Shown: one piece after another, positions 7,049-35,186 of the stretch
Layout of the letters: the number at the start of each line of letters is the position of its first letter
Position numbering within the stretch: position 1 is the stretch's first letter
Source of the DNA: Azolla caroliniana
Taxonomy: Eukaryota; Plantae; Polypodiophyta
Assembly (NCBI GenBank): GCA_043228905.1
Contig: JBHGNT010000015.1
Location: forward strand, 124,001-188,000
Direction of reading: 5' to 3'
DNA: 64,000 bases
Program-made: the position numbers and the translations under genes
The notes under the pieces: model-generated
Databases searched by the model: none
What the model was told of the DNA's origin: nothing
Seen by the model: the letters and a program-made list of their open reading frames with translations, nothing else

Positions 7049-7104
<56 letters not shown>
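7049..7104. repeat. (TC)n microsatellite, 5' flank of RTEX-like LINE
   Basis: Perfect dinucleotide run. Confidence 0.95.
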
Positions 7105-7108
<4 letters not shown>

Positions 7109-7562
7109 CCATTGTTGTCGTTGTTGTCGTCGTCTGCAGCCGCTGTCTGCTGCCGCTGCAGCCGTCGCCGTCTGCTCTCTCTCTCTCTCTCGCTTCCTCG
7201 CCTCTGTGTAACGGCTCTCTCTGTCGTTGCTATCACCGGTTAGTGTCGTCGTCGTCGTCTGTTGTTGTTGTCGTCAGACGACTACCACTGTCTGCGGCCG
7301 TCGCCGTCTGCTACCGTCTTCTGCCGTCTTCTGCCGTCTGCCGTCGTTTGACGACCGCCGCCGTCACCGTCGCCGTCACGGGGTGTTTCTTCTCCGTTTT
7401 CTCTTGACGTTGTGAAGTGCCATTTTCTTGACGAGTTCGTGGGTGGGTTCTTTTGGTGTGCTCGTCGCGTGCTACAAAATGCCGATGTGATTGCGACATA
7501 CACACAAACTCGGCTAAGTCTCGAACCCATTTATTTTACCTTTTTTTCTTATTGACACCACA

Positions 7563-8375
7563 ATGACGTCTAAACGAACTAAGGAACATAAGGATATACA
7601 AGACGAGGCTATAAGTAAGGAGGACTTTTTAGATATGTTTAATCGTTTAACAAAAATAGAGATGGATATGAAAAAATGGGTGAAAGACACCGAAACCCAC
7701 AAGAAAAAAGATAGAGAGGAAAAAGACGCCCTCAAGGTCGAAATAGAACAACTTAAAGTAGAAAACACTGACCTTAAAAAACAACTTAAGGACATCGAGG
7801 TATCTCGAGAAGACGGTGAAATATCCTCTATAGAGGATATAAAGGACGAAATTAAAAAAGTTAAAGAGGAAGTTAATAATAACATAGAGTTAACTAAAAC
7901 GGGTTGGGTAGATGTGGTTAAAAGAAACATTAAAAAAGAAATAAAAGATGAAAATATTGTTAATACAACCCTTGAAGAAGAGAAAATGCGTCAGGCCCAA
8001 CGCTTAAATGTACGTGTCACTGGGCTCAAGGAAGGTGCATCCCCAAATGAGGACGCACAAACACTTGGGAAAATGTTAGGGTACACAGAGGCCCTACCTA
8101 TCACCAAAGCATGGAGGGTCGGGCGTGACACAACTAGGAAGAGAGCCTTCGTCCTTCAATTTAAAGACTTAGACTCTAGAATCACTTTCTTTAAGAAGAG
8201 ACCAATCCTTCGAGGAATGGATGGGGACCCCATCTATCTCGATGAAGACCTCACTAAGATGCAAATTGAGCATTGCAAGAGTTGTATGCCACGAGTTATA
8301 CAAGCTCGTAAAGAAGGCCATCGCGCCTTTTACCGAGACGGGCGAGTGATCATAAATGATCGCACTACTAATTGA
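7563..8375 (+). CDS. LINE ORF1 protein (coiled coil plus RRM-like region, NVRVTGLKE...IYLDEDLT)
   Basis: Intact 270-aa ORF immediately upstream of the endonuclease ORF, with motifs typical of LINE ORF1. Confidence 0.8.
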   Translation: MTSKRTKEHKDIQDEAISKEDFLDMFNRLTKIEMDMKKWVKDTETHKKKDREEKDALKVEIEQLKVENTDLKKQLKDIEVSREDGEISSIEDIKDEIKKVKEEVNNNIELTKTGWVDVVKRNIKKEIKDENIVNTTLEEEKMRQAQRLNVRVTGLKEGASPNEDAQTLGKMLGYTEALPITKAWRVGRDTTRKRAFVLQFKDLDSRITFFKKRPILRGMDGDPIYLDEDLTKMQIEHCKSCMPRVIQARKEGHRAFYRDGRVIINDRTTN

Positions 8376-10070
8376 CAGTGTGTGGTCCATGTGACAGAAA
8401 ATGCACTTAGGATGACCCTATGGAATTGTAATGGCGCACTCTGGGCACACCCCGGCCGCCTAGAGGAGATACTAAAGGTATCTGATATACTTTTCTTGGT
8501 AGAAACACATCAGAGCCCAAATAGAGGACTCCCACGGGTTGAAGGATTCCGTTGGGAGTCCGCTTATACACAAACCTCACGTCGACACACTACTAGGGGA
8601 TCTAGAGGTGTCGCGATACTGTTTCGTAGAGAGCTACATCATAGGATAGAAATAATGAAGATAGACCCAGAAGCTCGTTTTATGTGGGTGAAAGTCTCCA
8701 CAAGCAAAGACCAGGCAGTATTTTTCGCCATTTGTTACTTTCCCCCAAAAGGATCCCGTTATAATATTGGTGGCTTGACGAGATTAGTCGATGAAGGAAT
8801 GCCACATGGGCCTTCTCCATACGAACCCCTATCGGATGACATAATCCGATATTCTTCCCAAGGAGAAGTATTTCTTGTAGGAGACTTCAATGCGAGAACC
8901 CAATCCCAACAATGCACAGTATTCTAGATGAATAGAAACCTAGAAATGGTAAATGTTGATCCTTTAGACATAGGCACCACACGTAGATCAAAGGATCAAG
9001 GTGCGGACGCCACGAGCTTTGGCCATCATCTGCTCGAACTTGGCAGTCGACACCGGATAGTCATATATAATGCTTTAGCTAAGTGGCCGGGCTCGAAAGA
9101 GCTCACATGTTTCCCACATGGAGGAGGGGAAAGCACAGTTGACTATCTAATAGGGCGCCCTGAAGCTACCCACATGATTAACTCCTTCCGAGTGGCCCCA
9201 TGCCCTATTGGCGCAGACCATAGTTTCTTATACTTCGAGCTAAAATGTGATATCTCTAAGGTCACCAAGTCTAGTCAACCATGCCATCACACCACAATAC
9301 ATTTCACACATGAGCTCTCTGACATATACTCTCAACATGTTCAGGCCCATCTCCCCTCCCTTGATCCCTCCCTACCGTTAGAAAGCCTTAGTACAAAACT
9401 CACACACATCCTTCACTCCGCAGCAGCTAGCAGTTTCCCATATACAAAACACTCAAATCAAGGTAGATCAGGATCAATGCCACAAAATAAATGGTATGAC
9501 GAGGATTGTAGGGACTTACATAGACAACTCAATGGTAGTATTACCTCCATACAAGCCCGCAAGGAAATGCGTAAGATGACACGTCGTAAGAGACGAGCAT
9601 GGGAGGCATCCCAATACTGGGAACTCTACCATATGCTCATGAGTAGCGATTGCGCCACGGCATGGAAGAGACTACGGGAGCCAAGACCACAAACACCCAT
9701 CGAAGATCCCAAAACTTGGCACACATATACAGAGAGACTTTACCAAATCCCAAACCAACCACCCATTCCAATGCCTTCCACACCCCGGCCTACCACAGGG
9801 ACACATTTCACGACCTCTAGGGTCGTGAAGGTCATAAAGAAATTGCAACATAGGAAGTCCATGGACCACACACAAATGCGAGCAGAACACATTATATATG
9901 CGAGAGAGTGCCTAGCTCCCTTGCTAACTCTAATCTTCAATCGTGCCCTTGCGGAGGGTTTTCCACCACAGTGGACTATGAATACAGTGGCCCCCATACA
10001 TAAAGGGGGGCACCCTGTTGGGAGACAGGTCCCTCCGGATGGGAAGGGAGAAGAAACCGGATGAGGAGTA

Positions 10071-10305
10071 CCCGGTATGAACCGGATGAGGAGTTCCCGG
10101 CTACGGAGAGCCGGACGGTGCAGGCCCGGTATGAACCGGATGAGGAGTACCCGGCTACGGAGAGCCGGATGCTGCAAGCCCGGTATGAACCGGATGAGGA
10201 GTACCCGGCTACGGAGAGCCGAATGGTGCAGGCCCGGTATGAACCGGATGAGGAGTACCTGGCTACGGAGAGCCGGATGGTGCAGACCCGGTATGAACCG
10301 GAGGA
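10071..10305. repeat. 54-bp tandem repeat array in copia A 5' LTR
   Basis: The unit ccggtatgaaccggatgaggagtacccggctacggagagccggatggtgcaggc occurs about 4 times. A longer array with extra sub-units lies at ~20449-20755 in the 3' LTR. Confidence 0.9.
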
Positions 10306-13226
10306 AGAGACATATTCGTAAATATGTTTCTGAGAGCCCATTGTGGCTATATTTGTAAATAGCCGAAAAGTCATATTAGTATAAATATGACTTAGGGCAA
10401 ACTAATATGAAGTTGTTGTCATTTTTCTTGTTGGTGCAAGAAAAAGAGAGAGTGCGTAACTGTACAAAGAGAGAGAGAGAGACGAGGTCCTTGCCTCTGT
10501 TATAACTGCCGCCTATGGCGAAGATCGTGAGTCTGAGGTCGTTGCCTCCGTGTACTCACTGTTTTGTACATTCATACATAGTGACAGTTTGCAGCCTGTG
10601 GGCTGCCGTGGTTTTTTTTTCCCCTAGTTTGGGGTTTTCCACGTTAACCTCCTGTGTATCTTCCTCTCCTTTTGTGTCGTGTTTTATTACCTGTTTTTCT
10701 GTGTATGAAAAGAATCTCGGTTGTGGCCGAGTGTTGGACATAAGGAACGTTGGGTTCTCGTCAAGAGTGGTATCAGAGCAAAATCGACACAGAAAATGGA
10801 CGAATCGTTTGGCGGCATGTTCAAGCTCACCGGCTCCAACTATTCAGTGTGGACGTCGAAGATGAGGGACATGCTCGTGGTTAACGACCTCTGGCTGCCG
10901 GTTCAGTTCGGGGACAAGAGACCGGACAAAATCGACGCCGCGATATGGGAGGTGATGCACATGAAGACAACGGCGTACATACGGTGCTTCATCGACATGA
11001 GCCTGTACAACAACTTCAATGAAGAGAGCAAGGATCATGAGCTCTCGAAGAAGATCGGCATAATGTTTCAGAACAAAAATGCTGTCAATCAAGTGTCGGT
11101 ATTCCGGAAGCTAGTAAGACTCTGGTACCAAGATGGCTCCAGCATGGCGGAGCACATGAATGCCTTCCAGGGGCTGATTCACCAGGCAACTTCATTGGAA
11201 GTACCTCTCGCCGATGAGGTACTTGCACTACTCCTGCTCGGTTCCCTCCCGGATAGCTGGGAGACGTTAGTTGTCACTTTGGGCAACGCCGGGCCGGAAG
11301 GAAAACGGTTATCCCTAGCAAGAGTAAAGTCGAGCTTGCTAGATGAGGAGGCGCGTCGGAAAGACAAAGATACGAGCTCCGACTCCAAAGCGCTCCTTAC
11401 CGAATCGGAACGCGGAAGACATAGAAACCGTAGTCCCCAGAACCGGGAGAAGTCGGGGACACGGTCAAAGTCAAGGGGGAGGCCTACTTGCTTCTATTGT
11501 GGCAAGCCGGGACACTTCCAAAAGAACTGTCGGCATTTCCGTAAAGACAAGGAAACCGACGGTACCGATTCGAAGCAAACCCCGGACCGGAACGGTAAAG
11601 ACCGGAGGGGGCCGGACCGGAAGGGAACGACGGCAATCGCGGCAAGTGAAGAAGAGTTGATGCTCATCACCGAGGAGAGTGAGATAAACCTTGCCGGCGA
11701 CAAGATGACCTGGGTGGTAGACTCCGGAGCATCGTTCCACCTTACCCCGGACCGGAAATGCTTCGCATCCTACTCAGCCGGTGACCACGGCTGTGTCCGG
11801 ATGGGGAATGAAGGTACATGCCGAATTGTCGGCATAGGAGACGTGTGGCTAACAACACCAACCGGATGCAAGTTGCTGTTGAAGGATGTCTGACACGTTC
11901 CGGAAGTTCGTCTGAACCTGATATCAGCCGGTCGGCTAGATGATGAAGGCTACATGGGTAGCATTCGGAACGGTGTCATGAAGTTTAGCAAAGGGAGCCT
12001 GATTGTGGCTCGGGCCCGGAAGGTAAACACGTTGTACCTGATGAATGCCCGGTTATTTCCGGAAGAAGTGAACGTGGCATTCGACACTGCCGGTGAGCTG
12101 TGGCACAAGAGGCTGTGTCATATGAGCGAGAAGGGGATGAAGAGGCTTGCAGACGATAACCTCATTCCAGTGAAGAACGTGCACTTAGAGAAGTGCACTG
12201 ATTGTCTGGCCGGTAAGCAGAACCGGACCTCCTTCCGACCAAGGCCACCAATGAGACGTAATGCACCACTGGAGTTGGTGCATACAGATGTGTGTCAAGT
12301 AGACACGAAGTCACATGCCGGAGCGCAGTACTTCGTGACGTTCATAGATGACCACAGCCGGAAGCTGTGGGCCACACCGCTGAAGACGAAGGATCAGGTG
12401 TTATCCGTCTTCAAAGAGCTCCACGCGAGAGTGGCAAGAGAAACCGACCGGAAGCTGAAGGCGGTTCGAGCAGACAACGGAGGAGAATACCGGGGGCAGT
12501 TCGAGGAGTACTGCCGCTCGAAGGGAATCCGGCTCGAATTTACCGTGCCGAAGATGCCGGAACTAAACGGACTGGCCGAGAGGATGAACCGGACCATAAT
12601 GGAGAGGGTCCGGAGTATGCTAGCGCATGCAAAACTACCCAAGAAGTTTTGGGCTGAGGCACTGTCGACGGCAACATACGTGATAAATAGTTCACCCTCA
12701 GTACCCTTGGACGGAGACACGCCACAGAGAGTGTGGACCGGTAAGGAAGTATCCTACCAGCATCTGAAGGTGTTCGGGTGTCTCGCGTACGTGCATGTAG
12801 CAAAGGACCGGAGAGGAAAGCTAGATCCAAAGACCCGGCCATGCATATTCCTCGGTTACGGTGACGATGAGTTCGGCTACCGAGTGTGGGACCTGGTCGA
12901 CAAGAAGGTATTCCGGAGTCGAGATATTATCTTCATGGAGGACAAGACGCTCGCCGACTGGGAGTCGGAGAAGAAGATAATGAACTCTGAGTCGACCGGT
13001 AAGGATAGACTCTACGATGAGCAGACCCAACCGGCAAGAGACCGGTTAGCACTCAAGGAACCAGCCGGTTACGGTGAGGATACCGAACCGGCAGAAGAAG
13101 AAGTAGAGGAAGCTGAGATCGGAACCGGCCAAGACCTCGAATCCGATTCGGATGAAGAGCAAATGGAGGAGCCGGTTACCGAAGCCCAAAGACGTAGATA
13201 TCCTCTCAGAGAGAGAAGGGCCCCCC

Positions 13227-13313
13227 TGTTGGAGACAAGGCCGTGTCGATGCGGAAGATCAAGTAGCATTCGATTGGGGTTGAGAACCTGCGTATGACAG
13301 TTTGCAAGATCGT

Positions 13314-13355
<42 letters not shown>

Positions 13356-16300
13356 AGGCACAAAAGACTTTCTATTCAATAGAAACAATAATACAAACCA
13401 ACCTTACAAAAAGGTTACAAGGTCACTATATATAGTGACCGACTTAGGGCAACTACCATTTATGCTAATTACACAAATGGCCCAAACTTGATCTATACAA
13501 AGGGATAGTGTGAATACGTCCATTATACACTTGTATTCGACACTCCCCCGTAATGGGCGTATACATGGGTTATCTAAGATTACAGGTATAAACCTAGGTT
13601 CTCGGACATATCAGTTTTGTTCGAGTCGGCAGGGTCCGAAGGCAGAAGACCGGACTGGTCGGGTCGGAAGAGTTGAAGCCGATCATTAGGGAACTGATGT
13701 CGGTTGTCTGAAACCATCCTGCGCTGTGTCCGGCTCTAACCGGACTGGTTTGTCGTTACGCCCATCTGATGCCGAAGGAACCGAAAGCGGTCTGCCGAAA
13801 GACACTTGGTCATTCCATCTGCGACATTGTCGGTTGTGGATATTTTCTCTAGACCGATTTTCCTTGAAATGACGCAGTCCCGAACGAAGTGATATCGAAC
13901 GTCGATATGTTTGGAGGCGTTGTGGTGAACCGGATTTCTCGACAAGGCAACAGCACCTTGACTGTCGCTATAGACAACTGGAGCCGAGTCATGGTCGACT
14001 TGCCGAAACGTGTGCGCCAGCCGGCCGAGCCACAAAGCTTCTTTTGCAGCGTCAGACGCAGCTACATATTCTGCTTCGGTCGTTGAGGTCGTTGTGCACT
14101 CCTGAAGTTTCGACTTCCACGAAATTGCTCCATTGCCGAATTTGAAGCAGTATCCGGTTGTTGATTTCCGACTGTCTATACAGCCGGCGAAGTCCGAGTC
14201 GGTGTAACCGACTACGCCTGAGGTTGAGTTCGGACCGAAAAGAATGCCGTGGTCTTTTGTGCCAGCCAGATATTTGAACACATGCTTGACTGCGTTCCAA
14301 TGCGATCGGCCAGGATTGTGCATAAATCTGCTAACGACTCCTACGGCATGAGAAATATCAGGCCGTGTCGCGACCATCAGGTACATAAGGGAGCCGACTG
14401 CCGGTGCATACGGTACCGACTTCATATCTTCCCCCTCCGGACCGGATGTCGGGCAGTCTCGCTGAGAGAGCCGAAGATTCATGGGGAGCGGGGTTGAAGC
14501 AGATTTGGCTGATTTCATGTTGAAGCGTTCCAAGACACGTCCGATATAGTCGGTCTGAGACAAAAAAAGATGTCGTTTATCGCGATGCCGACTAATCTTC
14601 ATGCCAAGTATGTGTCGTGCCGGACCGAGGTCCTTCATGGCAAACTTCAACCGCAGTTGCCGAATGAGATCGGCAAGTTCGCCCGCGTGGCGTCCAGAAA
14701 TTAGCATGTCGTCCACGTAAATGATGAGGAAGATGGGTGATCCATCTTGAGCTGTGTTGGTAAAAAGACAATGGTCCTCATCGCTTTTTCAGAAGCCGAT
14801 CGATTGGATGAAGTCGTCGAACTTCTTGTACCATTGTCGCGGTGCCTGTTTGAGGCCGTATAGACTCTTCCTGAGTCGGCAGACTAGATGTTCTTGGCCA
14901 GTTGCCACGAAGCCTTTTGGCTGCTCCATATAAATTTCCTCTTCAAGATCACCATGGAGGAAGGCTGTTTTGACATCTAGCTGAATCAGCTCCAAGTTGT
15001 CGGCTGCCACTACGCCGAGTAGAAAACGAAGGGTTGTCATTTTCACCACTGGTGAAAAAATCTCGTCGAAGTCGACGCCATATTCTTGTCGGAAGCCCTT
15101 TGCAACTAATCTGGCCTTGTACTTTGGGGTGGTCGAATCAGACGTCTCTTTTAGTCGATAAACCCACTTGCAAGGAAGAGCACGTCGATTCTTAGGTAAT
15201 TCGACCAGATCCCAAGTCTTGTTTGCCCGTATGGAGTGCATTTCCGACTCCATCGCCAGATGCCAGGTGGTTGAATCGACAGATGTCGATGCTTCTTCGT
15301 AAGACGTCGGTTCGCCGGCGTTGGTGAAGAAAATTCCAGGAGAATACCTCTCCGGAGGTTGCGACAGTCTCTCGGATCGTCGAGGTATGATTGGACTAGT
15401 CGCATCGGGTATCGAGGTCGGATGGTCCGAAAGCGAATTATTCTGTTGTGCCGAGTCAGAGTTGTCCGAGTCGGTGGTGTAAGGTTCAGCTACTCGTGAA
15501 GCTGACCGTGTGTTAAGAGCAGGGCCTTCTTGAAGGGTTGGCACATCGGAAAATGTTACCCTTCGGACTTCGATCGGTTTTTCGACTGATGGATTCATAG
15601 CCGACTCGTTGAACACAACGTCCGAACTTCGAACGATTTGTCTGCGTTCGGGGTCCCAGAGTCGGTATCCCATTTCGTCGTCTGATCCATATCCAAGGAA
15701 AATGCATTTCCTGGACCGAGGTGCAAGTTTTCGGCGATCATCTTTCGGAATAAGGGCGTAGGCCTCGCATCCGAAGATCCTCAGCTTGTCGTAATTCGGC
15801 TTACTGCCGATCCATAGTTCTTGAGGAATTTGAAGTCCTAGAGGTCTGCTTGGCGACATATTGATTATGTGTACTGCCGTGAGTAGAGCCTCTGCCCAGA
15901 AGCCATCCGACAGTCCGGAGTGTTGGAGCATGGAAACTATCCGTTCTTGGATTGTCCGATTCATTCGTTCTGCAATCCCGTTTTGCTCCGGACTGTGTGG
16001 TGCCGTAAATTCACGTCGGATGCCGCGTTGTCGGCAGAATTTGACGAATTCTTCTGATTTGAACTCTCCCCCATTGTCGGTCCGAAAGCATTTCAGTTTT
16101 CGGTCAGTTTGATTTTCTACCATAGCGAGCCAATCGGAGAAGATCGAGAAGACACGATCTTTGGTGCGAATTGGATAAGCCCACACCTTTCGAGTCGAAT
16201 CGTCAATAAAACTGACGAAGTAAGAGGCACCGCCGAGAGACTGATGCGGCATTGGGCCACAGACGTCCGAGTGGACTAAATCGAGAGGTCTCGTTTCTCT

Positions 16301-18538
16301 TGGTGCTGATGTCGGGTGTGATGCGGTTGCTTGTTTGCCATACTGGCAGTGTTCGCAGAATTGATGGTCCGAGAAGGAGAGTTTAGGGATGTATCCGGCT
16401 CTAGATAGGTGCGTAATGCCGGCCTTGCTGAGGTGTCCTAATCTTCTGTGCCATAGTGATGACACAGGAATATCCACCAAAAACAAGTTACCCTCTCTGA
16501 GCGTAACATGTAACGGATACAGTGAGTGTATCTTGGGTCCTCTAGCAAGCAGGAGGTTCCCCCTGTGGAGTGTCCACCCTCCCGAAGAAAAACCGGCACG
16601 AATGCCGTCTTCATCTAGTTATCCGACTGAGATCAATGGCCTTGAGAGCTCGGGTACATGTCGGACATTGTGAAGTACAAGTGTAGAGCCACCTGCAAGG
16701 TTGAGCTCTACTGTGCCAATTCCAATGATGTCACAGTGTTGTGAGTTGCCGACTCGAACTGAGTCGGAGTGACGGATCGTATATTGCCGAAATTGGGATC
16801 GATGAGGAGTCACGTGAAATGACGCGCCCGAATCTAAGAGCCATGTGCTCGATTCTTCAGTCGTGAGCAGAACTTCTGATCCGACTGGATTTTCGATTGA
16901 TAGTATATTCGGGTCGTTTGGTAGCACATCAGCTGAGAAGCTGACGTAATTGATCTCCTCATGCCGGCCACTCTTCTTGTCTGATTTCTGAGACTTGTCG
17001 TTCTTGTTCTTGAGTGCGCGGCAGTCGGCTTTGATGTGTCCGGGTTTCTTGCAATAGTTGCAGATTCGATTATCCCGTGACTGGCTCCGTCTTCGCTGAT
17101 TGTTCGGCTGCCGTGAGGAATCTCTTCCTCGTATGTTCGATCGGTCTGTCGAACCTTGTACTACATAAGCGTCGTCTGTTGAGTCTTTGGCGAAAGACTT
17201 TCTCCGAGCTGCTTCGGTCAGGATTGCGCTCGTGACTTCGGAGTATCTAACAGCCGTGGTTGACGCGTTGCACACGGTTGTGACAAAAGTTTCCCATGAT
17301 GAGGGAAGGCTGCTCATGAGTATCATTGCTTTGAGTTCATCCTCGATTGCCGTCCCCTGAGATGAGATTTGGGAGCTTATGCTTTCGTACTCATTGAGAT
17401 GTGCTTGAACCGAATCTGATTCTTTCATCCGCAAGTTGTAGAGGCGCCGGATCAGAAACATCTTCGTTGCGGCGACCTTCTTTTCGTAGGTGTCCGACAG
17501 TGTTTTCCACAGTTCGAATGCTGTCGTACACGATTGCACCGTAAAGTATACCGATTCCGATAGGTGCATCCGAATCGTGGCGCGGACGATTCTGTCCAGC
17601 TTCTGCCACTCAATTGGTTTGTATCCTTCTGGAGGTTCTTCATTTTCGATGGGATCGATTTGCCCCTTGACTATGAGATAGTCCTGCATTTGCTCCTTCC
17701 AGAAGTTGAAGTTCGATCCATCGAACTTTCGTAGACTCATTTCTGACAAGCCGGATGTTGATGCCATCAAATTTGGTTTCGGTTGACGAAGCTCGGTTCG
17801 GAGTTGACTACGAACCTTGTTGGAGTGCAGCCGGTTGGCTCACCCGATATCGTTCTAGTCGGATTTGAACCCGAGTCGGTTCGGCTTCGGATATATGTAT
17901 TGTTGAACTTGCTCGAATTGACTCCGGTAACTTGAGGGACAGAACCGACTGGTCTTCCCGAATGTTGCCGAGTCGGAGTGAGCCCGGTTCGCTTCCGAAT
18001 ATATATGCCAAATACCGATTGTCTGGACCGATTCTGCTTCAGGTGACTGCAGCGATGAGAGAGACGGATCCAACTGATCCTCCCGAATGTCGATCAGTCG
18101 GATGAAGCACGAATTGGGGTTGTTGTCTTGAGACCGATCTGCACCGAGTGGTTACAATGAGCGGCGAGCAGCGTTTGATGACCTCTTCGGATGCCGTTTA
18201 ACCGAGTGGAGCACGATCGTGTCAATGTTGCACAGGGGGATTTCACCTCGAGCGGTTACGATCACAAGGAACAGAGTACAACCTGCTGGCTTACTCCAAG
18301 CGAAGATGATCTAACGCGATGAGATGCAAGCCTCGTTTTTCTTCTTCTTCTCTCTTCTTCGAATGACGCAAGAAACCGAATGTTGTGCAGGCTGAGACGA
18401 CGGCCGACAGCGGGATGAAGGACCAAATACTGTGCAGGCTCTGATACCAGATGTTGGAGACAAGGCCGTGTCGATGCGGAAGATCAAGTAGCATTCGATT
18501 GGGGTTGAGAACCTGCGTATGACAGTTTGCAAGATCGT

Positions 18539-18574
<36 letters not shown>

Positions 18575-18761
18575 AGGCACAAAAGACTTTCTATTCAATA
18601 GAAACAATAATACAAACCAACCTTACAAAAAGGTTACAAGGTCACTATATATAGTGACCGACTTAGGGCAACTACCATTTATGCTAATTACACAAATGGC
18701 CCAAACTTGATCTATACAAAGGGATAGTGTGAATACGTCCATTATACACTTGTATTCGACA
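13227..18761 (-). mobile_element. Ty1/copia element B, very young: LTRs 13227-13542 and 18452-18761
   Basis: The LTRs are identical except for (GA)n length. PBS tRNA-iMet at 18438-18449, PPT at ~13543-13550, perfect TSD ccccc (13222-13226 / 18762-18766). Confidence 0.96.
13736..17770 (-). pseudogene. Copia B gag-pol in a single frame with two in-frame stops (16619-16621, 14789-14791)
   Basis: ORFs 16619-17770, 14789-16486 and 13736-14716 share one frame. Motifs: CNYCKKPGHIKADC, WLLDSGAS, LDLVHSDV, YVDDML, ADGMTK. Confidence 0.92.
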
Positions 18762-21700: not shown

Positions 21701-22277
21701 GGAGGCACCGGAGTGGTCCTTGGGGATACGCAGGTTCGTATCTTGCTCTATGCGGATGACATAGTTTTGCCCTCTGAATCCGAACACGACCTACAAAGGC
21801 ACCTTAATGCCTTAGATGACTTTTGTGTACAACGAGGATTGGTAGTGAATCTAGGGAAAACGAAATTCCTTATCTTCCACACATCGGCCCAAGTTAGAGC
21901 TAAGTGTCACCTAACTATCTCCCATAGCCCAGTCGAGGTGGTTGGATCATACGTCTATCTCGGAGTCACTTTTAGTGCCCGCTCAGGTAAATTTTCGATG
22001 ACGCTGGCAGCGAAGGATAGACTCACGAGAGGACATGCATCCCTCTCACTCCTAGAGAGACAATGCCACCAAGCACACTTTCAAGTGCCACGGACTAAAG
22101 GGTGGCTCTTTGACTCATTAGTGACCCCCTCCCTCATGTATGCATCAGCGGTTTGGGCTCCAGGATTACCATCTTTCATGTGGACGCAATTAGAGAGACC
22201 ATTGGTGATGATGCTATCATTCCAACTCCGAAGCAAATCGACTGTACCACATGACATTATTAGGGTCGAGTTCACGT

Positions 22278-23000: not shown

Positions 23001-24228
23001 ACGTTACCCCCAATGTTAGTAGAGGCACTTTTTCAACTTGTAGTCTTCATTCACAGGATACATAGCCAACCACATGATAGAATATCTCATCAAGCCTTTA
23101 AGGCCTCTCGATCATTGTATGAGTCCGGCTATACTAGCTCATGGTATGGCATGATGGTGAGTTGGCTTCTTGCGAATGGTCTAGACATTAATAACCTACC
23201 TCCCCTTAGGTACAACCACACGAGTGATAACACTTTAATCTCTCATGAGGACCGCAATAAAGTAATACGCCAAGAAATATGGCAAATTTACACTCGGTGT
23301 AAATGGATCACCCCACTAGAGCCACTCCCATCTAAAATGTTGTACTATAAGAAACACTTCATGCACTTCTCTGAGTTAGGTTTTATCACGCGGCCAAAAT
23401 ATCTAGATGTATTCTTACCACATGCCCTAAGGGTTGCCATTGGACAACTTAGAATATCATCTCACCAACTTGAGATTGAGAATGGCCGTACTAGTGGAGT
23501 CCATAGGGAGGAAAGGATATGTAGGTTATGTCACATAGAGATAGAGGATGAGTACCACTTTACATGCAAGTGTCCAACCTATGCCGAGATAACGGCAAAA
23601 TACCAAGACATACTTGGTTCGTCTCCCACCCTCCCCAAACTATTAGATACTCTAGATATAAAGAAATTAGGCAAATACATTCTAGAGCTAAAACAACACA
23701 GAGAGAATAAGTTACAAAATGTTGACAATAATGTTGCTAATGATCACGAACATGTAACAAATGAAGTTTTTCAGGAACATGAGGAGACAACGAATGCCGA
23801 CACACTTGCACCACTCGGCCTTTCCATTGATGAGGCAGAAAACCAGAGAAGAACCAGACGTCCTCGGGTGCCAGGTTTCAAAGCAACTCGACGTGATGTG
23901 GAAGCAATATTGAAAATAAGGGAACGTGAGCTACACTGCCTAGAAGCCATGGCTAGGGCACTCTCTACATTGGAACCCACATCAAGACCCTTTGACCCCC
24001 CACTTCTTTTCGAGAGGCTTGGGTGGAAATAAAATTAGGCTTAGTGTATAGTCACTTTCGAGTATACTACATATTGTACACTACTAGAACTCTTTTAGTT
24101 TAAGTTCTATTTTTTACTAATTTTATTTTAGTTATGATGACTGGATAAACACTCTTTTGTTGTAAACCAATTGTCTCATGGGCCAAATTTGGCCTTAGAA
24201 GACGTTAATATATCTTTCTTTCTTTCTT

Positions 24229-24232
<4 letters not shown>

Positions 24233-24302
<70 letters not shown>
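24233..24302. repeat. (TC)n microsatellite between the tail-to-tail RTEX-like and L1-like 3' ends
   Basis: Perfect dinucleotide run. Confidence 0.95.
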
Positions 24303-24306
<4 letters not shown>

Positions 24307-27300
24307 GTGAAAACACACAATTATATTAATAAATGTGTGTGACAAACAGTACTTACAATACGTGTGACAATGGAGTATGGTCACACACTAACCACACTAC
24401 ACTACATGGGTAGTGGAACATGTTGAATTGCCAATAGGCAAGACGAACACTCCACCGAGGAAAGAATTTCCACTTGTTCCAATAAAGAAAATTGCCACAT
24501 TAGTACTCCCTTCAACTTTCGTAGATATGCTTTCACTCCATGTCTACCATTGAATACAAAAGCGTTGCGCATGTTCCAATTATGACGCAATCCCCAATAT
24601 CTCAAAAATAGGAAAACAATCTCCATCTCTGATTTTGGGTCAACCTGTGTAAATTGTGCAAACACCCATTGTCTAGGTGTCAAATAACTCCGTGATAAAA
24701 CTTGCCAAATTTGAGAAATGTAACTCCAAATTTGACAAGCAATTGGACATTGTATAAATCGATGAGTACTATCTTCTATCTAAACTATGCAAAAGAAGCA
24801 GGTACCCGTTGCTAGTCCACGACGCTTTAAAGCTAATCCCAAAGGCAATCCTCCGATCAAAACTCTCCTAATGAATACCTTTGCAACAAGTGGCAATTTA
24901 GAATGCCAACTACGTTGTAAGATCTGCCACCACCCATGATCAGATTTGTGTATTTTCCATTCTTCTTCAGCCTTAGATGATAACCATCCAAGACTCTCAA
25001 CGGAACAATGATACAAAAGATTAGTAGTCACTTGTAACAATGGTGTTTGACCACTTAAAGTCCAATCAATCCACGGTTGTTCTCCTATTTGTAGAGGTAA
25101 GGGACCTTGCATCAATGCAATATTTTGTAGTTGTTGCCAAATAAACCCATAATTAGGCGGGATGTGTAATAATTGTCGTGCTTCAGTAAACTCCAAAATT
25201 CTTTGAGATGGAACCTCAACTATATCTCCCACCTCTTTGACCCCCAAACGAAACAAACGATTAAATTGAGAACGCAATCTCTCCTTTCCTGGTCAACATA
25301 ATAACCGAGAAGACACAAGTAACTCTTTTTGCAAAGAGTTACAATGCTCTCTACTAGATCATGGTTTCCATACACATAACAAGAGTGCTTCTTGCCATGA
25401 GGTAACTAAGTGTTGAACACGTGAAGAACCCGGAATCTTAAGTTAAATACATTCATTCAGTAATTGCCACCATGAAGCCTTAATCGTTGTCCTCCCATGT
25501 GTTAAACCCTTCTTCTCAATGAAATATCGAACAATAGATATCCATGGTTGTGAGTTTGAACACATGTCTTGTAATAATGAAAATCTACGAGCCATCATAT
25601 GCATAGATAAGTTCAATATTCCAACCCCCCCCAATCGCTTAGGGGTTGCTAGATGATTCCAAGCAATCCATGTGATTCCCATCTTATCCCTCTTCTTCCA
25701 CAACAAATATCGAAGAGGTTGCAAAACAGAATTCAACGCCTTCTTTTTCCATGGCAATAATGGCAAGTAATATAATATCATGGGTTCCATAATACATTGT
25801 ACAACCTTCAAGCGAACATGAAATGGCCAAGATTGTGACTTCCAATACATGAACTTATCCCTCAACTTACTAGAAATCCATTCAATCAATTGACCATTTG
25901 TAACATTCATTCCTAATGGATAGCCCAAGTGTCGAAAAATAGAGCCTTTCTTCACCACGTATCCTTGCCATCCTAAACATTCCAAATCCCTTTCAGTGCA
26001 TGATATGAGACTAGACTCCTTCCGATTAATATGTAATCCGGAAGCCAATGCAAACTGATTCCATACAAGCATCCCCTTCTCAAGATTCTCCCGTGAGGCT
26101 TGTAAAAACATGAAAGAATCATCCGCCAAAGCTTGTGCTACTATTTGCCCTCCGAACGGAAGGTGTAAACCCACAATGTCACCATTTATTGCAAGTCTTG
26201 ATAACATCACTAACAAAGGATGAGTAACAATAGCAAACAACAATGGGCTAAGAGGGCATCCTTGATGAACGGATCTTGTGAGGGCAATATCTGATGTAAC
26301 TCCCCCATTAAGCATTACTCGAGACACTGCATCTTGTCCTAATAAAAATATGAGGCGAGACATACAAGGTCCAAAGCCCATTGTATGCATTAACCCGGAA
26401 ACAAAAGACCAATTAACATGATCATAAGCTTTCTCCAAATCTAATTGCACCATAATCAATTCTTGATGAGTGTTCCGAGCATAATCCATGGCCTTTTGAA
26501 CATTCAACACATTATGCAATATATTTCTACCTGCAATAAAACCATATTGGGTGGGGTGTATCAACTTTGGCAAATACTTTTGTAATCTATTTGCCAAGAC
26601 CTTCGTAAATATCTTGTACAACCCCCCCATCAAAGAAATAGGTCTCCATTGATGAAATGACTCAGGAGATGCCACCTTTGGAACTAGTTTAATTAGACCA
26701 ATCTTCCAAGCTTGAGGCATACAACCAGAATCCCAAGACTGTTGAAACATCAAAGTCAAGGACCCCTTTAAAATGTTGGAATATCTCTTAAAAACTTCAT
26801 TTGTCAAGCCATCCCAACCAGAGCTCTTACCACTAGGAAGATGCCTTAAAACTACATCCACCTCATCCTCAGTGAAATCCGCATCCAATTCATGACTAAT
26901 GAGATCATGCACAATACATCCAACCACATCATAAAACTCATGACATGCTCTACTCACCTCATCTGTCATTAAAAATTGTGTACCAATCAACTCCTTAAAG
27001 TAATGAAGACATATGTCAATTGTTGTTGTAGGATCCACTATCAATTCATCCCCTTGCTTCACATGTACCACGTTAGATCGAGCATAAGTAGGATGTAATG
27101 CTTGGAAAAACAAATGAGATTGACATTGATTATCAATGAGTCCTTCCCTGAGTTGTCGCATCTTAGCATAACGATAACTTTGGCATTGCAACTGAGAAAT
27201 AATAATATGCAATTGACTCTGAATATCCAAAAGCTCCTCATCTAATGGTGTATGTATCAATAATGCATTACACCTAGAGAGAATTTGTGAGAATTGTCAA

Positions 27301-30094
27301 ATAAGACCTCTTCTTCGTTGAGCATTGGTTACTCCATACATACGATGAATGATGTTAATGTTTCGTAATGTGATATCCCATGCTTTAACTCCTTTAAGAT
27401 TCACTTGTTGAGAAAAATTTACCAAAATTTGCTCCATGAGAGAATGAAAGTGAGGTTGAATCAAAAGAGAAGAGTTAAAGCGTAGTGGAGGTTTTCTAAG
27501 TAAAAATTTATACATTTCAATTGCATGATTACACACCTCCAAGAAAATAGGAAAGTGATCTGAAGTTCCAACATCTTGTAGAACGTTCATACGAAGTGAT
27601 GTCGGTAAAAAAGAATCATCATGCATCACATACATTCTATCTAACCGACTCCATGTTTGTCTATGTTGAGCAGATTGGAAGGTAAAACCTGGATCATTCC
27701 CTTGCAACCATGTCCAAACATCCAACTTCAGAAACTCCATAGCCAATGAGTCCCAAGCAAGTTGCTCAGTATCATCCATGATTGAATGTTCAGACGTGGA
27801 TTGAAATGCATCAACACACATGTTAAAATCGCCCATAAGTAATCTTGGACGTCCAATAGACAAGGTTTGAAGGAGTGAACCCCATAATGCAATACATTGA
27901 GTGGCTTGGTTAGGGACATAAATCCCAACCACCCACACAACCTCGCCAAAAAAAGTGATTTCTAGAACCAAAAACCGACCATAAGGATCATTATGCACCA
28001 CTTGAGGATAATACTTATCCCTCACGATTAATACCACACCTGAATAATGATTATTAAGATGTCCTGCATAAAATGATGAATATCCATGCAAATGCACTGT
28101 GGATCCTGCTAACTCATGACACTTATGCTCAACTGCACATACTACATCCCATTCTCTACTTAACAAAGTTTCCCATAGTATATACTTCTTATGAGGAGAA
28201 CATGCCCCTCTCACATTCCATGTTACCACTTCCATTCAATCAACAATGTTATGGGAGCACTTGCTCCTTTAGAGCAACCGATGTCATGAAACTAGTCAAA
28301 GCATGCTCCAATGCTGCATATGGATTTTCATGCACCACATCCTTAGGGTTGTCTATCGAAATCTTTTTTTTAGGTCCTCCCGCTTGACGAAAACCTCGAG
28401 AATTCGATGAATTTACAACTCGTCCCAATGAATCAAATTGAAGGTGAAGGGGTAACCCCTTATCCCTAGATTGCCGTTGCCAAGGAACTTTTCGAGGGCC
28501 CTCCCTAGTTCCTGAATTACCTTGCCAAGTAGTCACACGAGTAGTGGGCAAGCTACTACGATGCATATTCATTGATTTCCCTTTCGGCTTGCCCTTAACC
28601 TCATGCCAATCTTTGTCAACAACATCACTACTAGCTCTATCCAACGGTTTTTTCCCCTTATCTTTAACCACTAAACTTTGTTTTTCCATATCCATAGATT
28701 CAATTCCCTTATTCTTAGGGCCCAAACCTTGAAGTGAGACCTCTTTATAACCTGCTCTAGGTGATGTTCCTTCATCCACAAAATCTGACACACCAACATC
28801 TCTCCCAACTCCTTCCTTATCATTCCCTTCAATAGGAACCTCTGTAGTTGAAGGACAATGGTCGTGGCATTCCGCCATAAAGTGACCCCATTCACCACAT
28901 CCAAAACAATGACCTGCAAATGTCTCCCACTTCAGTTTAAAACAAAGACTTCTCATACCAGGACCATTCATACACACCCATCCTGGCCTCTTATGACTTG
29001 TATCCCATAACACACACAAATATGCACTTATTTGTAGCATTTGCATGTGGAGATACCAACACTTTACCCATTTGACTCATCAACTCTAGTAAAAGTGGCC
29101 ATAAAAAAGCATGCTTACAATCCACTGTAACCCAAACAGGACATTCTTGTTTTAACAAAGCAGGATAGTCCACTACGGGGGACCATTGCATAACATGCAC
29201 CAATCGTTTATCAAAAAACACAGGAACTTTACCCAACAATGCACTTCGATGCTCCGGTGAACGAAATACCACATCATAAAACCCTCATGGTCCCGCATAT
29301 ATATTTTCAACACAATTTGGTGACATGATTGTGTTCAACCATTGTTTAATCCAATTAACATATGGGAGTTTGCCAGTAAAAAATAATATAACAGCACGAT
29401 CATAGAATACATCAAATGATTGCAAAACTGCCTTAGCATCAACTTCCACATCATGCACATCCTCTTCAATGCATTCTTTCGCTGCATTTTCATTTTCTTC
29501 CACAATATCCGACAATAAGGTATTGGCAATTCCCTATAAATTATCCCAATTACAGTGATCCTTGTCAACTTCATCTACATGTATTATTTCGGCATATGTT
29601 AATTTTTTTCTCATTAATTTCTTCAATTCCCTTAAACCTCTTAGAGCTTCCAATGTCTTCCCTTTCACGATTACATTCAACCATCACATTACTCTTTTTT
29701 GGATCAATTGTTTCCATATCAATATCCCCCACAATTTGTGAGGAATTCATGTTTATGTCCATCATTATATCAATCCGGGATAAAAACAATTTTCCATGAA
29801 CAAGAGAGAAAATCAGAACTCACCCGATTGAAGAGGTCGAAGATTTTGAAAGCAATCGAAGACCCACAATGAGTTTTGAGTATGTGGATGCCGACAACAC
29901 AAGATTCCTTATTGCTATCACTGCTTCTCGTACAAACCGCCAAATTCAACTTGTTATATCTCGTTGCGAAGCTCTACTCGATGGCTTTCCAACGTTTGTC
30001 TTTATGCTCAATTCTGTTACCGATAGAGAGTGCAGCAATAAAAACAAATTCGCTTCTTCTTCCCTTCTCCACTCTTGCGTTTTTTCCTCCTCCT

Positions 30095-30098
<4 letters not shown>
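24303..30098 (-). mobile_element. Full-length degenerate L1/Tx1-clade LINE
   Basis: ORF1 pieces span 29789-28249 (DUF4283-like, CFGCGEWGHFMAEC knuckle). ORF2 pieces span 28235-24402: EN (TWNVRG, GDFN, SRLDR, SDH), RT (DLEKAYD, QGCPLSP, LADDS) and zf-RVT (CFFC). The element is flanked by (GA)n at both ends. Confidence 0.9.
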
Positions 30099-30137
<39 letters not shown>

Positions 30138-30394: not shown

Positions 30395-30433
<39 letters not shown>

Positions 30434-31332
30434 ATTATCGTGTTCGGAGGTCAAATATGACATATGAGACCAAAAAATATTACATTTCACGTGATACGTG
30501 TGAAAGTGAGTAGTGACTCTCGATGTTCAAGAACTTTACCAATGAATGTTGTAATCAAGAGTGCACATTGTGGTTGTGAGAGGAATTCATGCAAACATTG
30601 GGCTCGGTCGAAGAGATGTGGAAAGCACGGTCGAATATGATCAAAGGCAGAGCATTATATCAAAGTGTGATACTCAGACTCGCGAACTTGTTTAGGGCAA
30701 AGTGTGCATTGTCGACCACTCTCATCACTTGTGCCCCAACGCCCTGTTTCAGATCGCAATGCATGTGAGCTAAGTCACATGGAAGCAATGGTTTGAATGG
30801 TAGATAACGGTATGGGCTCTAACATGTATCAATGTGTACGATTTCCCCGTTCCGCAAAGAATATGGTTTTGTAGTTAGGTGCAACATGTGTAGTATAATG
30901 TGTGAAGCATGAGCCTCCACATTTGTCCCATGTCATGATACATTGGCGTTGCAAGAAGGCCTCATTTACATAGGAATCTAATGATGCATCATGAAGAAAG
31001 TGTCTCACATCCCATCTACCAAACCATTTTTCTATATCTTGCATCCAACCGGAACACAAAATTTTTCTTTTATGCGTCTTTTGGATCTTTTTGCTTGCTT
31101 CCCATGCAATTCTAGGAAGTCGATGTGAGGGATTTTTTTGAACCTTAAGCATGTATTCAACAACCCTTTCAATGGCCATGATCTCAATGGGAAGTGATCC
31201 CGTCTCAAGGAGGAGGAGGGTGTAGGGTGTTTGTTTCTTAACTTGTAGAAACTTTGTAAGAAAATGTTTTTGGACATTTTCAAACTCTTTCCACGTAGAT
31301 TTAGGGATGCTACCGCCCCATACTTCCACCCC

Positions 31333-31383
<51 letters not shown>

Positions 31384-31620: not shown

Positions 31621-31624
31621 TCGC

Positions 31625-32704: not shown

Positions 32705-32799
32705 CCACCATGTCTATCTTCATCATCAATCATCATCACTATTGTAATCCTTAACCCTAAACCTAAATATATAACACTCACAATTACACTTGTACACAT

Positions 32800-34880
32800 C
32801 AACAACATTATAGTCTTCCACCCTCACTCATCACACTCGACTCTCCGTACATCTCGTACGGTAACATATACATTGAAGACCATAACTCAATGCGTTGATT
32901 AGCATTATTGAGTGCATAGATTCCTACCAACCATATCAAATTCTCAAAATACTTGATTTCCATCACCAAAAAACGTCCATATGGATCATTATAGACTATA
33001 TGTGGACAAAACAAATCATGAATAATCATGACAACCCCTGAGTAATGATGTGATAACTATCCTGCATAATATGCAGAATATCCACGCAAATGTAACACAA
33101 ATCCTACTAAATCATGACACTTATGTTCAACTGCACATAAAACATCCCATTCTTTATCAAATAAAGTTATCCATAATATATATTTCTTTTGAGAAGAAGA
33201 TGCCCCTCTCACATTCCATGATACCACTTTCATTTAACACCTTTAGTAAGAACTTGCTCTTTATGAGAAAGTGTATTCATGAATGTACTAACTACTTGTT
33301 CAAGAGCTACATAAGGATTCATGTGTACTACATCCCCTCCACCAATATTAGGGTTTTCTTGTCTAGCTCCATGAGAATGAAATCCTTGATTTAATTGAGG
33401 TCGTACCACCCTTCCGAAAGAATCGAATTGTAATTGGTTGGACAATCTCTGATCTCGCACTTGTTTTTGCCAATGATTTTTCTTAAATCCCTCATTCAAT
33501 CTCAAATTATCTTTTGGTAATGCCTTACCATTAGTATTTTTTGTGCTCCTTTGTATGGCAACACCCTTCCCTTTTATCTTATGCTTCACTTGATGCCACT
33601 CTCTATCTTCAACATCTAGGTCATCATTAATATATACTCCATTCTCCTCCCCAACACCTCTAACATGAACATGAACATGAACTTTAGGATCTCGCTCTAA
33701 CCCATGAGATGTTCCCTCATCCATGACCATATCAACCATTGAGACAATATCCTTCTCAACATCTTCCTTATTTTTCCCTTTCACATTATTTTCTAGGGAT
33801 AGTTCACCATGATATTGGCATTCAGCCATAAAATGCCCCAATTTACCACATTTAAAACAATGTTCTACAAAAGTCTCCCATTGAAGCTTAAAACGAAATT
33901 GACCAAATTGAGATGTATCTATACTCAACCACCCTGGAAGTTTACAACTTGTATCCCATAACATGCAAAATCTACATTTGTTCAACGAATTAACATGAGG
34001 AGCAACCAGAACTTTACCAATTTGAGACATCACTCCCGGTAGTAAATCCCAAAAGAATGAGTTACTACAATCAACGGTTACCCAAATTGGACATTATTGT
34101 TTTAATAAATCTTTATAATCCACCACCAGAACCCATTCCATCACATGCACTAATCTTCTATCAAAAAAGATTGGTGCCTTTGCCATCAAAGCTATACGGT
34201 GTTCTGACGATCGAAAAACCACATCATAGAAACCTCTTGGACCCACATATATATACATCATCAACACAATTAGACATTATGAATGAATTCAACCATTGCT
34301 TAATCCATGATACCAAAGGAAGTTTGCTAGTGAAATACAAAATAACACCACGATCATACAACTTGCCAAAAGTTGTTAACATAGACTTGGTCTCCATCAT
34401 GACCTCTACAACATCCTCCTCCACACAATCTTTAGTATCTTTCTCATTTTTTTTCCATAAAATCAGAAAGCAAAGCCTTAACAAAATCACGACGACTGTC
34501 AATATCATAATCATCTCCAATAAACATCTTTCCCACTAAGAATAACATCATATGATGTTCTGTAGAATCGATACACTTTTGCCTCTTGTAATTTTCACAA
34601 CCATCATTACTACTTCATACATCAACAATCATCAACTCACTTCCTGTTGTTGTGTCAGTCATCCGAATAGAGATTGAGAGAACTAACCTGAGACGATGAC
34701 AATTTTTCTTGTAGATTCTTGTAACGATAAAGAAACTTAACTTCCAAATAATTATTGGAAATATCTCTGAACGAGATTCGCAACGAGCCAAAAATCATAA
34801 AAAACGGAGTTTTGAGTACAAAGTTACATCAAAAACATGTTTCAACACCATTCGTGGAGCGTCATCGCTTTTTTCCCTCC
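32800..34880 (-). mobile_element. Second L1/Tx1-clade LINE, 5' half only (ORF1 plus start of EN)
   Basis: ORF1 with CFKCGKLGHFMAEC is homologous to 28249-29515. ORF2 begins MKVVSWNVRGA at 33233. The 5' end abuts (CT)n at 34881-34906. Confidence 0.82.
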
Positions 34881-34906
34881 CTCTCTTTCTCTCTCTCTCT
34901 CTCTCT

Positions 34907-35186
34907 GCCCTAAACAAGTTCGCGAGTCTGAGTATCACACTTTGATACAATGCTCTGCCTTTGATCATATTCGACCATGCTTTCCACATATCTTCAACCG
35001 AGCTCAATCCTTGCATGAATTCCTCTCACAACCACAATGTGCACTCTCAATTGCAACATTCATTGGTAAAGTTCTTGAACATCGAGAGTCACTACTCACT
35101 TTCACATGTATCACGTGAAATGTAATATTTTTGGTCTCATAGGTCATATTTGACCTCTGAAGACGATAATATAATCTATCTATCTC
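34907..35186 (+). mobile_element. 5'-truncated RTEX-like LINE 3' end, family 2
   Basis: It encodes CPKQVRESEYHTLIQC... (Zn-finger tail) and matches the reverse complement of 30430-30700. It ends gaagacgataatataa(tcta)n and starts directly after (CT)n. Confidence 0.85.

What the first reader, a model, noticed from the sequence alone, without database searches (positions are those of the whole stretch)
7049..35186. All five LINE insertions, from two clades, are anchored on (CT)n/(GA)n microsatellites with clade-specific polarity
Seen: RTEX-like copy 1 lies between (TC)n 7049-7104 and (TC)n 24233-24302. Copy 2 (5'-truncated) lies between (GA)n 30398-30429 and 31335-31381. Copy 3 starts directly after (CT)n 34881-34906. 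On their sense strands all three read (CT)n-element. The L1/Tx1-like element at 24303-30098 has (GA)n on both sides of its sense strand with almost no poly(A), and the second L1 starts at (GA)n too. The truncated copies also have the repeat at their 5' junction, so it is target-derived rather than part of a UTR. Known: microsatellite-specific LINEs exist in animals (Tx1-clade Kibi/Koshi, R1-clade Waldo). Inference: this is a plant system in which two unrelated APE-endonuclease LINE lineages target the same dinucleotide repeat on opposite strands.
Basis: partly seen in the sequence, partly recalled or inferred. Interest (0 to 1): 0.85.

Follow-up and report, generated by a model that had tools for sequence, protein, structure and literature searches.

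The report
Fern LINEs favour CT/GA microsatellites, strand-specifically
In a fern genome, three lineages of LINE jumping genes sit in CT/GA microsatellites far more often than chance, two with CT and one with GA on their sense strand, likely because each one's RNA tail pairs with the matching DNA strand when it inserts; it is a preference, not strict targeting, since about half of the copies checked have no repeat beside them.

Summary
The host is a fern (nearest named relatives Adiantum, Ceratopteris). The five LINEs occupy only three (CT)n/(GA)n tracts. The 'RTEX-like' copies are two families about 30% identical in ORF2, so three lineages are involved. Copy 3 has only a short 3' tail, and the second L1 has no traceable 3' end. 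Outside the window, 115 distinct copies of the RTEX-like 3' end have (CT)5+ on the sense strand at 41 of 109 3' ends and (GA)4+ at none. At 5' truncation junctions 10 of 42 have (CT)4+ against 21 of 3639 background windows, and 1 has (GA)n. However, 21 of 37 copies with both ends readable have no tract on either side. These families carry their own (TCTT)n or (ATCT)n tails behind a conserved stem-loop. The L1-group family ends in a few A's against (GA)n or (AAG)n; all 4 of its 3' ends found in the loci lie tail-to-tail with an RTEX-like copy. Best reading: relaxed microsatellite preference whose strand is set by tail-primer pairing during target-primed reverse transcription. The behaviour is known from animal LINEs; I found no fern or dual-lineage case in ten paper searches.

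The parts
7049..7104 (+). (TC)28 host tract, 5' flank of A1, inside an LTR-like host element
7105..24212 (+). A1: full-length family A-I LINE (RTEX-like). ORF1 7563-8375 (coiled coil, L1-type RRM/CTD-like end), in-frame stop, ORF2 APE-RT in pieces 8376-10015, 21218-22277, 23001-24032; interrupted by nested LTR elements
   Evidence: P0241 is 94-96% identical and open across the pieces
10016..21217 (+). Copia element (LTRs 10016-10763, 20393-21217) nested in A1, with a second Copia (LTRs 13227-13547, 18452-18766) inside it; all four LTRs carry LINE-free (GA)7-17 tracts
22278..23000 (.). solo-LTR-like insert (TG...CA, ACGT duplicated) in A1 ORF2
24173..24204 (+). A1 3' stem-loop, shared with family A-II with a compensatory pair change
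24213..24232 (+). (TCTT)5 element-borne tail of A1
24233..24302 (+). (TC)35 tract shared tail-to-tail by A1 and B1
24303..30098 (-). B1: full-length L1-group LINE; ORF1 with DUF4283 remnant, ORF2 APE 28235-27297, RT 27296-25443, zf-RVT; 2-3 terminal A
30099..30134 (-). (GA)18 on B1's sense strand, 5' flank; continues into the host LTR-like element 30135-30260
30398..30429 (-). (CT)16 3' flank of A2
30430..31334 (-). A2: 5'-truncated family A-II LINE (open frame 74% identical to P0271, about 25% to family A-I)
31335..31380 (-). (CT)23 5' flank of A2; host is homologous to the host of A1/B1
   Evidence: left-side alignment score 70, shuffled maximum 34
32868..34887 (-). B2: 5' part of a second L1-group copy (ORF1 with zf-CCHC, start of APE); broken off by a 590-bp inverted-repeat element; 3' end not in the window
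34888..34906 (+). (CT)9 tract shared head-to-head by B2 and A3
34907..35187 (+). A3: 280-bp 5'-truncated family A-II copy, 94% identical to A2, ending in a short ATCT-type tail with no long (CT)n

Best explanation
Three fern LINE lineages are enriched in CT/GA microsatellites with fixed strand polarity, likely because a loosely specific endonuclease nicks such tracts and the nicked DNA end must pair with the element's own RNA tail to start reverse transcription. Shown: the enrichment, the polarity, the tails and the 3' stem-loop. Inferred: families A-I and A-II end in (UCUU)n or (AUCU)n, which pair with the GA strand, so GA is the primer strand and (CT)n reads on the sense strand. Family B ends in a few A's like any L1, pairs with the T/C strand, and so has (GA)n or (AAG)n on its sense strand. 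The tract is split by the insertion or lost on one side, so repeats appear on both sides, one side or neither. Insertions away from tracts use only short matches. A-type tails and tracts then serve as sites for later A and B copies, giving the tail-to-tail and tandem arrangements.
For: 3' side: (CT)5+ in 41 of 109 A copies, (GA)4+ in 0 of 109; background 12 and 24 of 1482 windows. 5' junctions, which cannot be tail-born: (CT)4+ in 10 of 42, (GA)4+ in 1 of 42, background 21 of 3639; odds ratio 54, p 4e-13; polarity p 0.012. Tails (TCTT)n and (ATCT)n behind a stem-loop with a compensatory pair; the same tails in contigs of runs under three organism labels. Empty paralogous sites hold a CT-rich tract in 6 of 10 comparisons. 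L024 (A-II) and L067 (A-I) hit the same host repeat; A1/B1 and A2 hit homologous LTR-like positions. All 4 B 3' ends in 185,913 bp of loci lie 28-57 nt behind an A 3' end on the opposite strand, against (GA)n or (AAG)n; L011's truncated B has (GA)n at both ends. Loose ends beyond B's 3' end are T/CT-rich in all 8 listed rows. Precedent: tail-target pairing proposed for RTE (PMC6007223, passages); about 80% 3' microhomology and target truncation for ZfL2-2 (PMC2666801, passages).
Against: 21 of 37 A copies readable at both ends have no tract on either side, and only 3 have one on both. For family A-I alone the 5' count is 1 of 13. 8 of 37 have (CT)n on the 3' side only, which tail slippage could also give. 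A copies inside B coding sequence (L049, L111) have no tract in the empty counterpart. Only 1 of 4 truncated B copies has (GA)n at its 5' junction, and those four were found because they sit next to A tails. Sequence cannot separate endonuclease choice from tail pairing. No clear target-site duplications were recovered.
Confidence: 0.6

Rival explanations
1. Endonuclease-level specificity: each family's APE domain directly recognises the CT/GA repeat and nicks one strand, as believed for Kibi and Koshi; copies without tracts are old, rearranged or lost their tract, or the short-read contigs under-sample long tracts.
For: 38% of 3' flanks and 24% of 5' junctions carry the repeat, above the 20% rule Kojima used for 'target specific' (PMC4494074, passage). 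All five copies in the window are in tracts. The loci come from short-read contigs, which break at long repeats. Two A families with different tails (TCTT, ATCT) converge on the same dinucleotide.
Against: 57% of doubly readable copies lack a tract, including copies with near-intact stem-loops; insertions in B coding sequence have no tract at the empty site; polarity matches tail composition in all three families.
Confidence: 0.2
2. The repeats are mostly made by the elements (tail slippage turning ATCT/TCTT into (CT)n; untemplated additions at the 5' end) and kept by neutral accumulation in repeat-rich DNA; there is little targeting.
For: Tails are element-borne and grade into (CT)n. 8 of 37 copies have the tract on the 3' side only. 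B1 and B2 share a GA-rich 5' start, and A1's 5' UTR holds its own (CT)8. Passive accumulation was proposed for Drosophila Waldo-A/B (PMC3812793, passage).
Against: 5' junction enrichment with one polarity; tracts pre-exist in empty paralogs and in LINE-free LTRs of the window; homologous host positions were hit by different families; passive retention gives no strand bias.
Confidence: 0.17
3. The window pattern is a small-sample coincidence in a GA-rich genome.
For: Only three independent tracts in the window; the window has 13 such tracts.
Against: p about 5e-7 in the window, 4e-13 at 5' junctions and 8e-41 at 3' ends elsewhere.
Confidence: 0.02

Closest known systems
Kibi (TC)n and Koshi (TTC)n, Tx1 clade of teleost fish; crocodilian Tx1 in (TTCC)n/(TTTC)n (PMC4494074 and PMC3812793, passages)
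   Same: APE-type LINE of the L1 group enriched in a CT-containing microsatellite; more than 20% of flanks carry it.
   Different: Host is a fern. Family B falls in a fern clade apart from the fish and frog rows and from seed-plant L1. The preference is loose. Two further, unrelated families use the same tract on the other strand. The strand used by Kibi could not be checked (supplement not held).
RTE-clade LINEs and SINEs whose 3' microsatellite-like tail correlates with the cut site (Nishiyama and Ohshima 2018, PMC6007223; abstract and passages)
   Same: Short tandem tail after a conserved 3' end; tail composition predicts the first target bases; pairing of tail and primer proposed.
   Different: Plant RTEs end in (GTT)n with a T-stretch/TSD signature and have at most a rudimentary ORF1 (PMC3905857, passage); family A has a 270-aa ORF1, CT-rich tails, whole microsatellites as sites and no clear TSD.
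RTEX clade of green algae (tails (CA)n, (CAA)n, (CCAT)n, (ACAATG)n, (CTTGTAA)n; PMC3747384 table 3, passage)
   Same: APE-RT with a full ORF1 and tandem-repeat tail; family A groups with Chlorella, Micractinium and Taxus rows.
   Different: No esterase or RNase H found in family A; no named RTEX sequence was available for the tree; no microsatellite targeting is described in the passages read.
Zebrafish ZfL2-2 and eel UnaL2, stringent-type L2 LINEs (PMC2666801, PMC3747384, passages)
   Same: 3' stem-loop plus repeat tail, 3' microhomology, blunt or truncated target sites.
   Different: Not reported as microsatellite-seeking in the passages read; different clade.
Waldo (ACAY)n, Mino (AC)n, Dong (TAA)n; plant Micron MITE in (TA)n (PMC3812793, passage)
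   Same: Mobile elements found inside microsatellites.
   Different: Other repeat units and clades; the only plant case listed is a DNA transposon.

Membership tests
APE-type non-LTR retrotransposon (A and B) | APE endonuclease and RT in ORF2, no LTRs, 5'-truncated copies with a common 3' end | tested here: met
   Pfam Exo_endo_phos and RVT_1 in A1 and B1; truncated copies
L1 group (B) | RT and EN closest to L1; C-terminal zf-RVT; ORF1 with DUF4283 and CCHC knuckle; A-rich 3' end | tested here: met
   best PDB hits human L1 ORF2p, E 3e-39 (RT) and 1e-12 (EN); zf-RVT in P0001, DUF4283 remnant below cut-off, zf-CCHC in B2; short A run
Tx1 clade (B) | RT groups with named Tx1 elements | tested here: inconclusive
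   B forms a fern clade (96-99) next to Riccia rows (84); its relation to the animal rows, one named TX1, is unresolved; quick tree only
Seed-plant L1 clade (B) | RT nests within seed-plant L1 | tested here: not met
   the 9 seed-plant rows form their own clade (99) without B (quick tree)
RTEX clade (A) | RT groups with named RTEX elements | not testable with these tools
   no named RTEX protein among 360 hits; A groups with green-algal and Taxus rows, far from L1
RTEX clade (A) | full ORF1, unlike RTE | tested here: met
   270-aa ORF1 in A1; Atlas leads to Baculo_FP_2nd/Transposase_22-type clusters at 0.85-0.90; no Pfam hit
RTEX clade (A) | tandem-repeat 3' tail instead of poly(A) | tested here: met
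   (TCTT)n and (ATCT)n
RTEX clade (A) | SGNH esterase in ORF1 (some members) | tested here: not met
   no esterase hit in A1 ORF1; the feature is optional
Target-specific LINE, Kojima's rule | one sequence type in more than 20% of flanks | tested here: met
   A: 41 of 109 3' flanks, 10 of 42 5' junctions; A-I alone 1 of 13 at the 5' side; B not counted genome-wide
Strictly microsatellite-specific LINE (Kibi/Koshi type) | nearly all copies inside the repeat | tested here: not met
   21 of 37 A copies have no tract on either side; short-read contigs bias this count against long tracts
Strictly microsatellite-specific LINE (Kibi/Koshi type) | endonuclease cleaves the repeat sequence-specifically | not testable with these tools
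   needs a nicking assay

The most novel reading that the evidence does not exclude
Ferns run a three-lineage microsatellite niche: two RTEX-like families only 30% identical (sharing one 3' stem-loop, perhaps by exchange) and an L1-group family have independently evolved endonucleases that read the same CT/GA repeat on opposite strands, and the CT-rich tails laid down by the first two keep creating landing sites for all three, which would help explain the wealth of GA/CT tracts in this genome.
Probability: 0.2. Interest if true: 0.72.

Novelty: new variant of a known kind. Interest (0 to 1): 0.47.

Why it matters
How APE-type LINEs choose microsatellites is stated to be poorly understood (PMC3812793, passage), and the listed cases are animal. 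Here three high-copy fern families with different tails use one repeat on opposite strands, with intact ORF2 relatives on record (P0243, P0276, P0001/P0004). That is a natural set for separating endonuclease choice from tail-primer pairing by tail and domain swaps. It also bears on where fern GA/CT microsatellites come from and on why SSR markers in such genomes may fail or amplify many loci (inference).

Tried and rejected
No whole genome is held for the window, and the metagenome records behind the loci are not searchable as genomes, so no genome-wide count in one assembly was possible. The family A motif found nothing in viral contigs; the B motif and B protein found nothing in viral or prokaryote genome contigs, so B has no unbiased locus set. 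In one search the tool dropped loose ends at the 34869-34914 repeat, so B2's and A3's shared junction could not be read in other copies. A search for target-site duplications gave only short or repeat-made matches. The careful tree did not finish; the quick tree is used, one row (P0086) was dropped as too short. PDB search with A1 ORF1 gave nothing significant. Long-range pairing between A1's ORF1/ORF2 junction and its 3' UTR was not significant: -25.0 against -19.7 +/- 3.3 kcal/mol for shuffles. The right-hand host alignment is weak (43 against shuffled maximum 40). The supplement of PMC4494074 was not held; it may show the strand used by Tx1 families. Ten paper searches listed no fern or plant microsatellite-targeting LINE; most were seen as listings only, subscription journals and Repbase Reports are not covered, and Kojima and Fujiwara 2004 was seen only as cited. 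No structure was predicted, since a fold would not decide specificity.
Full report
Host and anatomy. The nearest named relatives of both reverse transcriptases are from the ferns Adiantum nelumboides and Ceratopteris richardii, so the window is fern DNA. No whole genome is held. The stretch 7049-35187 holds five LINE pieces. A1 (+, 7105-24212) is a full-length element split by a Copia with a second Copia inside it and by a solo LTR; an intact relative, P0241, is 94-96% identical across the pieces. B1 (-, 24303-30098) is a full-length L1-group element. A2 (-, 30430-31334) and A3 (+, 34907-35187) are 5'-truncated and 94% identical to each other. B2 (-, 34887-32868) is the 5' part of a second L1-group copy, about 71% identical to B1, with no 3' end in the window.

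The observation. The five elements occupy three tracts: A1 and B1 share one tail-to-tail, A3 and B2 share one head-to-head, A2 has its own. A3 has no long 3' tract. Of 13 (CT/GA)5+ tracts in the window, six are at LINE junctions, one is inside A1's 5' UTR, and six are LINE-free, four of them in Copia LTRs. The hosts of A1/B1 and of A2 are homologous LTR-like sequences on the left side (score 70, shuffled maximum 34; right side weak, 43 against 40), so different families hit the same position of related hosts.

Three lineages, not two. A1 shares only its last 40 nt with A2/A3. A2's frame is 74% identical to P0271 and about 25% to family A-I proteins; full ORF2s of the two families are about 30% identical and fall in separate clades (99 each) of a group that also holds Chlorella, Micractinium and Taxus rows (quick tree, 63 rows, P0271 standing in for A2's RT). 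B lies in the L1 group, in a fern clade outside the seed-plant clade, unresolved against animal rows. RTEX and Tx1 therefore stay working labels.

Family A elsewhere. The 3' end is predicted to fold into a stem-loop whose inner stem differs between the families by a compensatory pair. It is followed by (TCTT)n in A-I and (ATCT)n in A-II. In the next 70 nt, 41 of 109 copies have (CT)5+ and none has (GA)4+; 6 copies were set aside because the contig ended; background windows gave 12 and 24 of 1482. For 5' junctions I aligned each copy to 15 longer references, which were not themselves counted; 46 junctions lay at least 30 nt from a contig end; I dropped the window copy, three with more element sequence upstream and one where the reference ended, and added L114, the longer duplicate of L035. 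Of these 42, 10 have (CT)4+ and 1 has (GA)4+, against 21 and 24 of 3639 background windows (odds ratio 54, p 4e-13; polarity p 0.012). By family: A-II 9 of 29, A-I 1 of 13. Of 37 copies readable on both sides, 3 have the tract on both, 5 on the 5' side only, 8 on the 3' side only, and 21 on neither. Copies without a tract still have slightly pyrimidine-rich 3' flanks (0.56 against 0.50, p 3e-4). Contigs of four public runs laid on A3 agree: the largest loose-end groups continue in (ATCT)n (98, 124, 90, 112 contigs) or short (CT)n (72, 84, 68, 57) and then diverge; some joints show one copy's tail running into another truncated copy (24 of 1554 rows shown). Both data sets are short-read contigs, which under-sample long repeats, and some 5' junctions may be secondary breaks, so the shares are probably lower bounds (inference).

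Did the tract come first? Among 10 comparisons of a filled site with an empty paralog, 6 show a CT-rich tract at the empty site (L005/L008, L017/L048, L039, L108 and L056 against the window's 32.5-kb element, L094/L020), one a short TTCTCTCT (L081 against B1), and three none (L049 and L111 in B coding sequence; L054, whose neighbour is probably another A-type copy) (the output was cut and I saw its head and tail). L024 (A-II) and L067 (A-I) sit in the same host repeat. So the tract usually pre-exists where it is seen, but is not required.

Family B elsewhere. No unbiased locus set could be had. Four B 3' ends turned up in the 185,913 bp of the A loci; all lie 28-57 nt behind the A motif on the opposite strand, where the first 100 nt make up 10,883 bp, and all abut (GA)n or (AAG)n. 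One, L011, is a short truncated copy with (GA)n at its 5' junction too; the other three are not. Contigs of four runs laid on B1's 3' end gave 8 listed loose-end rows before 24303-24307; all are T/C-rich, 7 show TC repeats, several behind a longer T run, that is a short variable poly(A) (agreement 0.49-0.61; 24 of 854 rows shown). B1 and B2 share a GA-rich start, so the 5' (GA)n of full-length copies is not independent evidence.

Mechanism. By established TPRT chemistry the nicked strand complementary to the RNA is the primer. A pyrimidine-rich tail (UCUU, AUCU) pairs with the GA strand and leaves (CT)n on the sense strand; an A-tail pairs with the T/C strand and leaves purines on the sense strand, the rule recalled for human L1. 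This one inferred rule gives both polarities. Such pairing has been proposed for RTE elements (PMC6007223, abstract and passages), and ZfL2-2 shows about 80% 3' microhomology with blunt or truncated sites (PMC2666801, passages). Three-of-four matches alone may not explain a 50-fold preference for long tracts, so some endonuclease or DNA-shape preference probably contributes; sequence cannot apportion the two. The catalytic motifs of both endonucleases are present by alignment to L1 EN.

Known systems and novelty. Microsatellite-seeking APE LINEs are listed for animals only in PMC3812793 (passage) and PMC4494074 (passages); a plant review notes that plant elements are often surrounded by microsatellites acting as landing pads (PMC12477314, passage). 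By the 20% rule of PMC4494074 family A qualifies as target specific; by a strict reading it does not. Ten searches listed no fern case and no case of unrelated lineages using one repeat on opposite strands; Repbase Reports and subscription papers are outside the library.

Verdict. Real and reproducible beyond the window, looser than claimed, and most simply explained by a known mechanism. New variant of a known kind; interest 0.47.

Noticed in passing
window 24173-24212 (+), 30470-30431 (-), 35134-35173 (+): Families A-I and A-II are only about 30% identical in ORF2 yet share a 40-nt 3' end about 80% identical, with a compensatory change in the stem; strong constraint or a 3'-end exchange between families.
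   Followed up: partly
window 8373-8378: A1's ORF1 stop is in frame with ORF2, with the first ORF2 ATG-like codons just behind it; no significant pairing of this junction with the 3' UTR.
   Followed up: partly
window 32281-32867: 590-bp element with 89-bp terminal inverted repeats (TG...CA) and an inner CT/GA-rich tract; it breaks B2, and relatives of it are hit by A copies in L039, L056 and L108.
   Followed up: partly
window 10016-21217: Copia nested in A1 with a second Copia inside in the opposite orientation; the outer LTRs hold a 54-bp tandem array whose copy number differs between the two LTRs.
   Followed up: no
window 24362-24406: B's 3' UTR has a unit of about 40-45 nt that is repeated a variable number of times in other copies (joints going back 45); many B copies are very short (22-110 nt in L008, L011, L044, L062).
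   Followed up: no
L012, L047, L057, L078: Tandem A copies: the tail and (CT)n of one copy run straight into a 5'-truncated second copy.
   Followed up: partly
P0267-P0289: Several unnamed relatives of family A carry a PHD finger (PF00628) in the RT-bearing protein.
   Followed up: no
P0137, P0182: Fern-type family A RT fragments are filed under Enterobacter cloacae complex assemblies, most likely host DNA contamination.
   Followed up: no
L108 just behind the stem-loop: Two telomere-like units (CCCTAAA type) lie between the tail and the (CT)n tract.
   Followed up: no
window 36059-36469 and 41440-41548: 76-bp and 10-bp tandem arrays unrelated to the LINEs.
   Followed up: no
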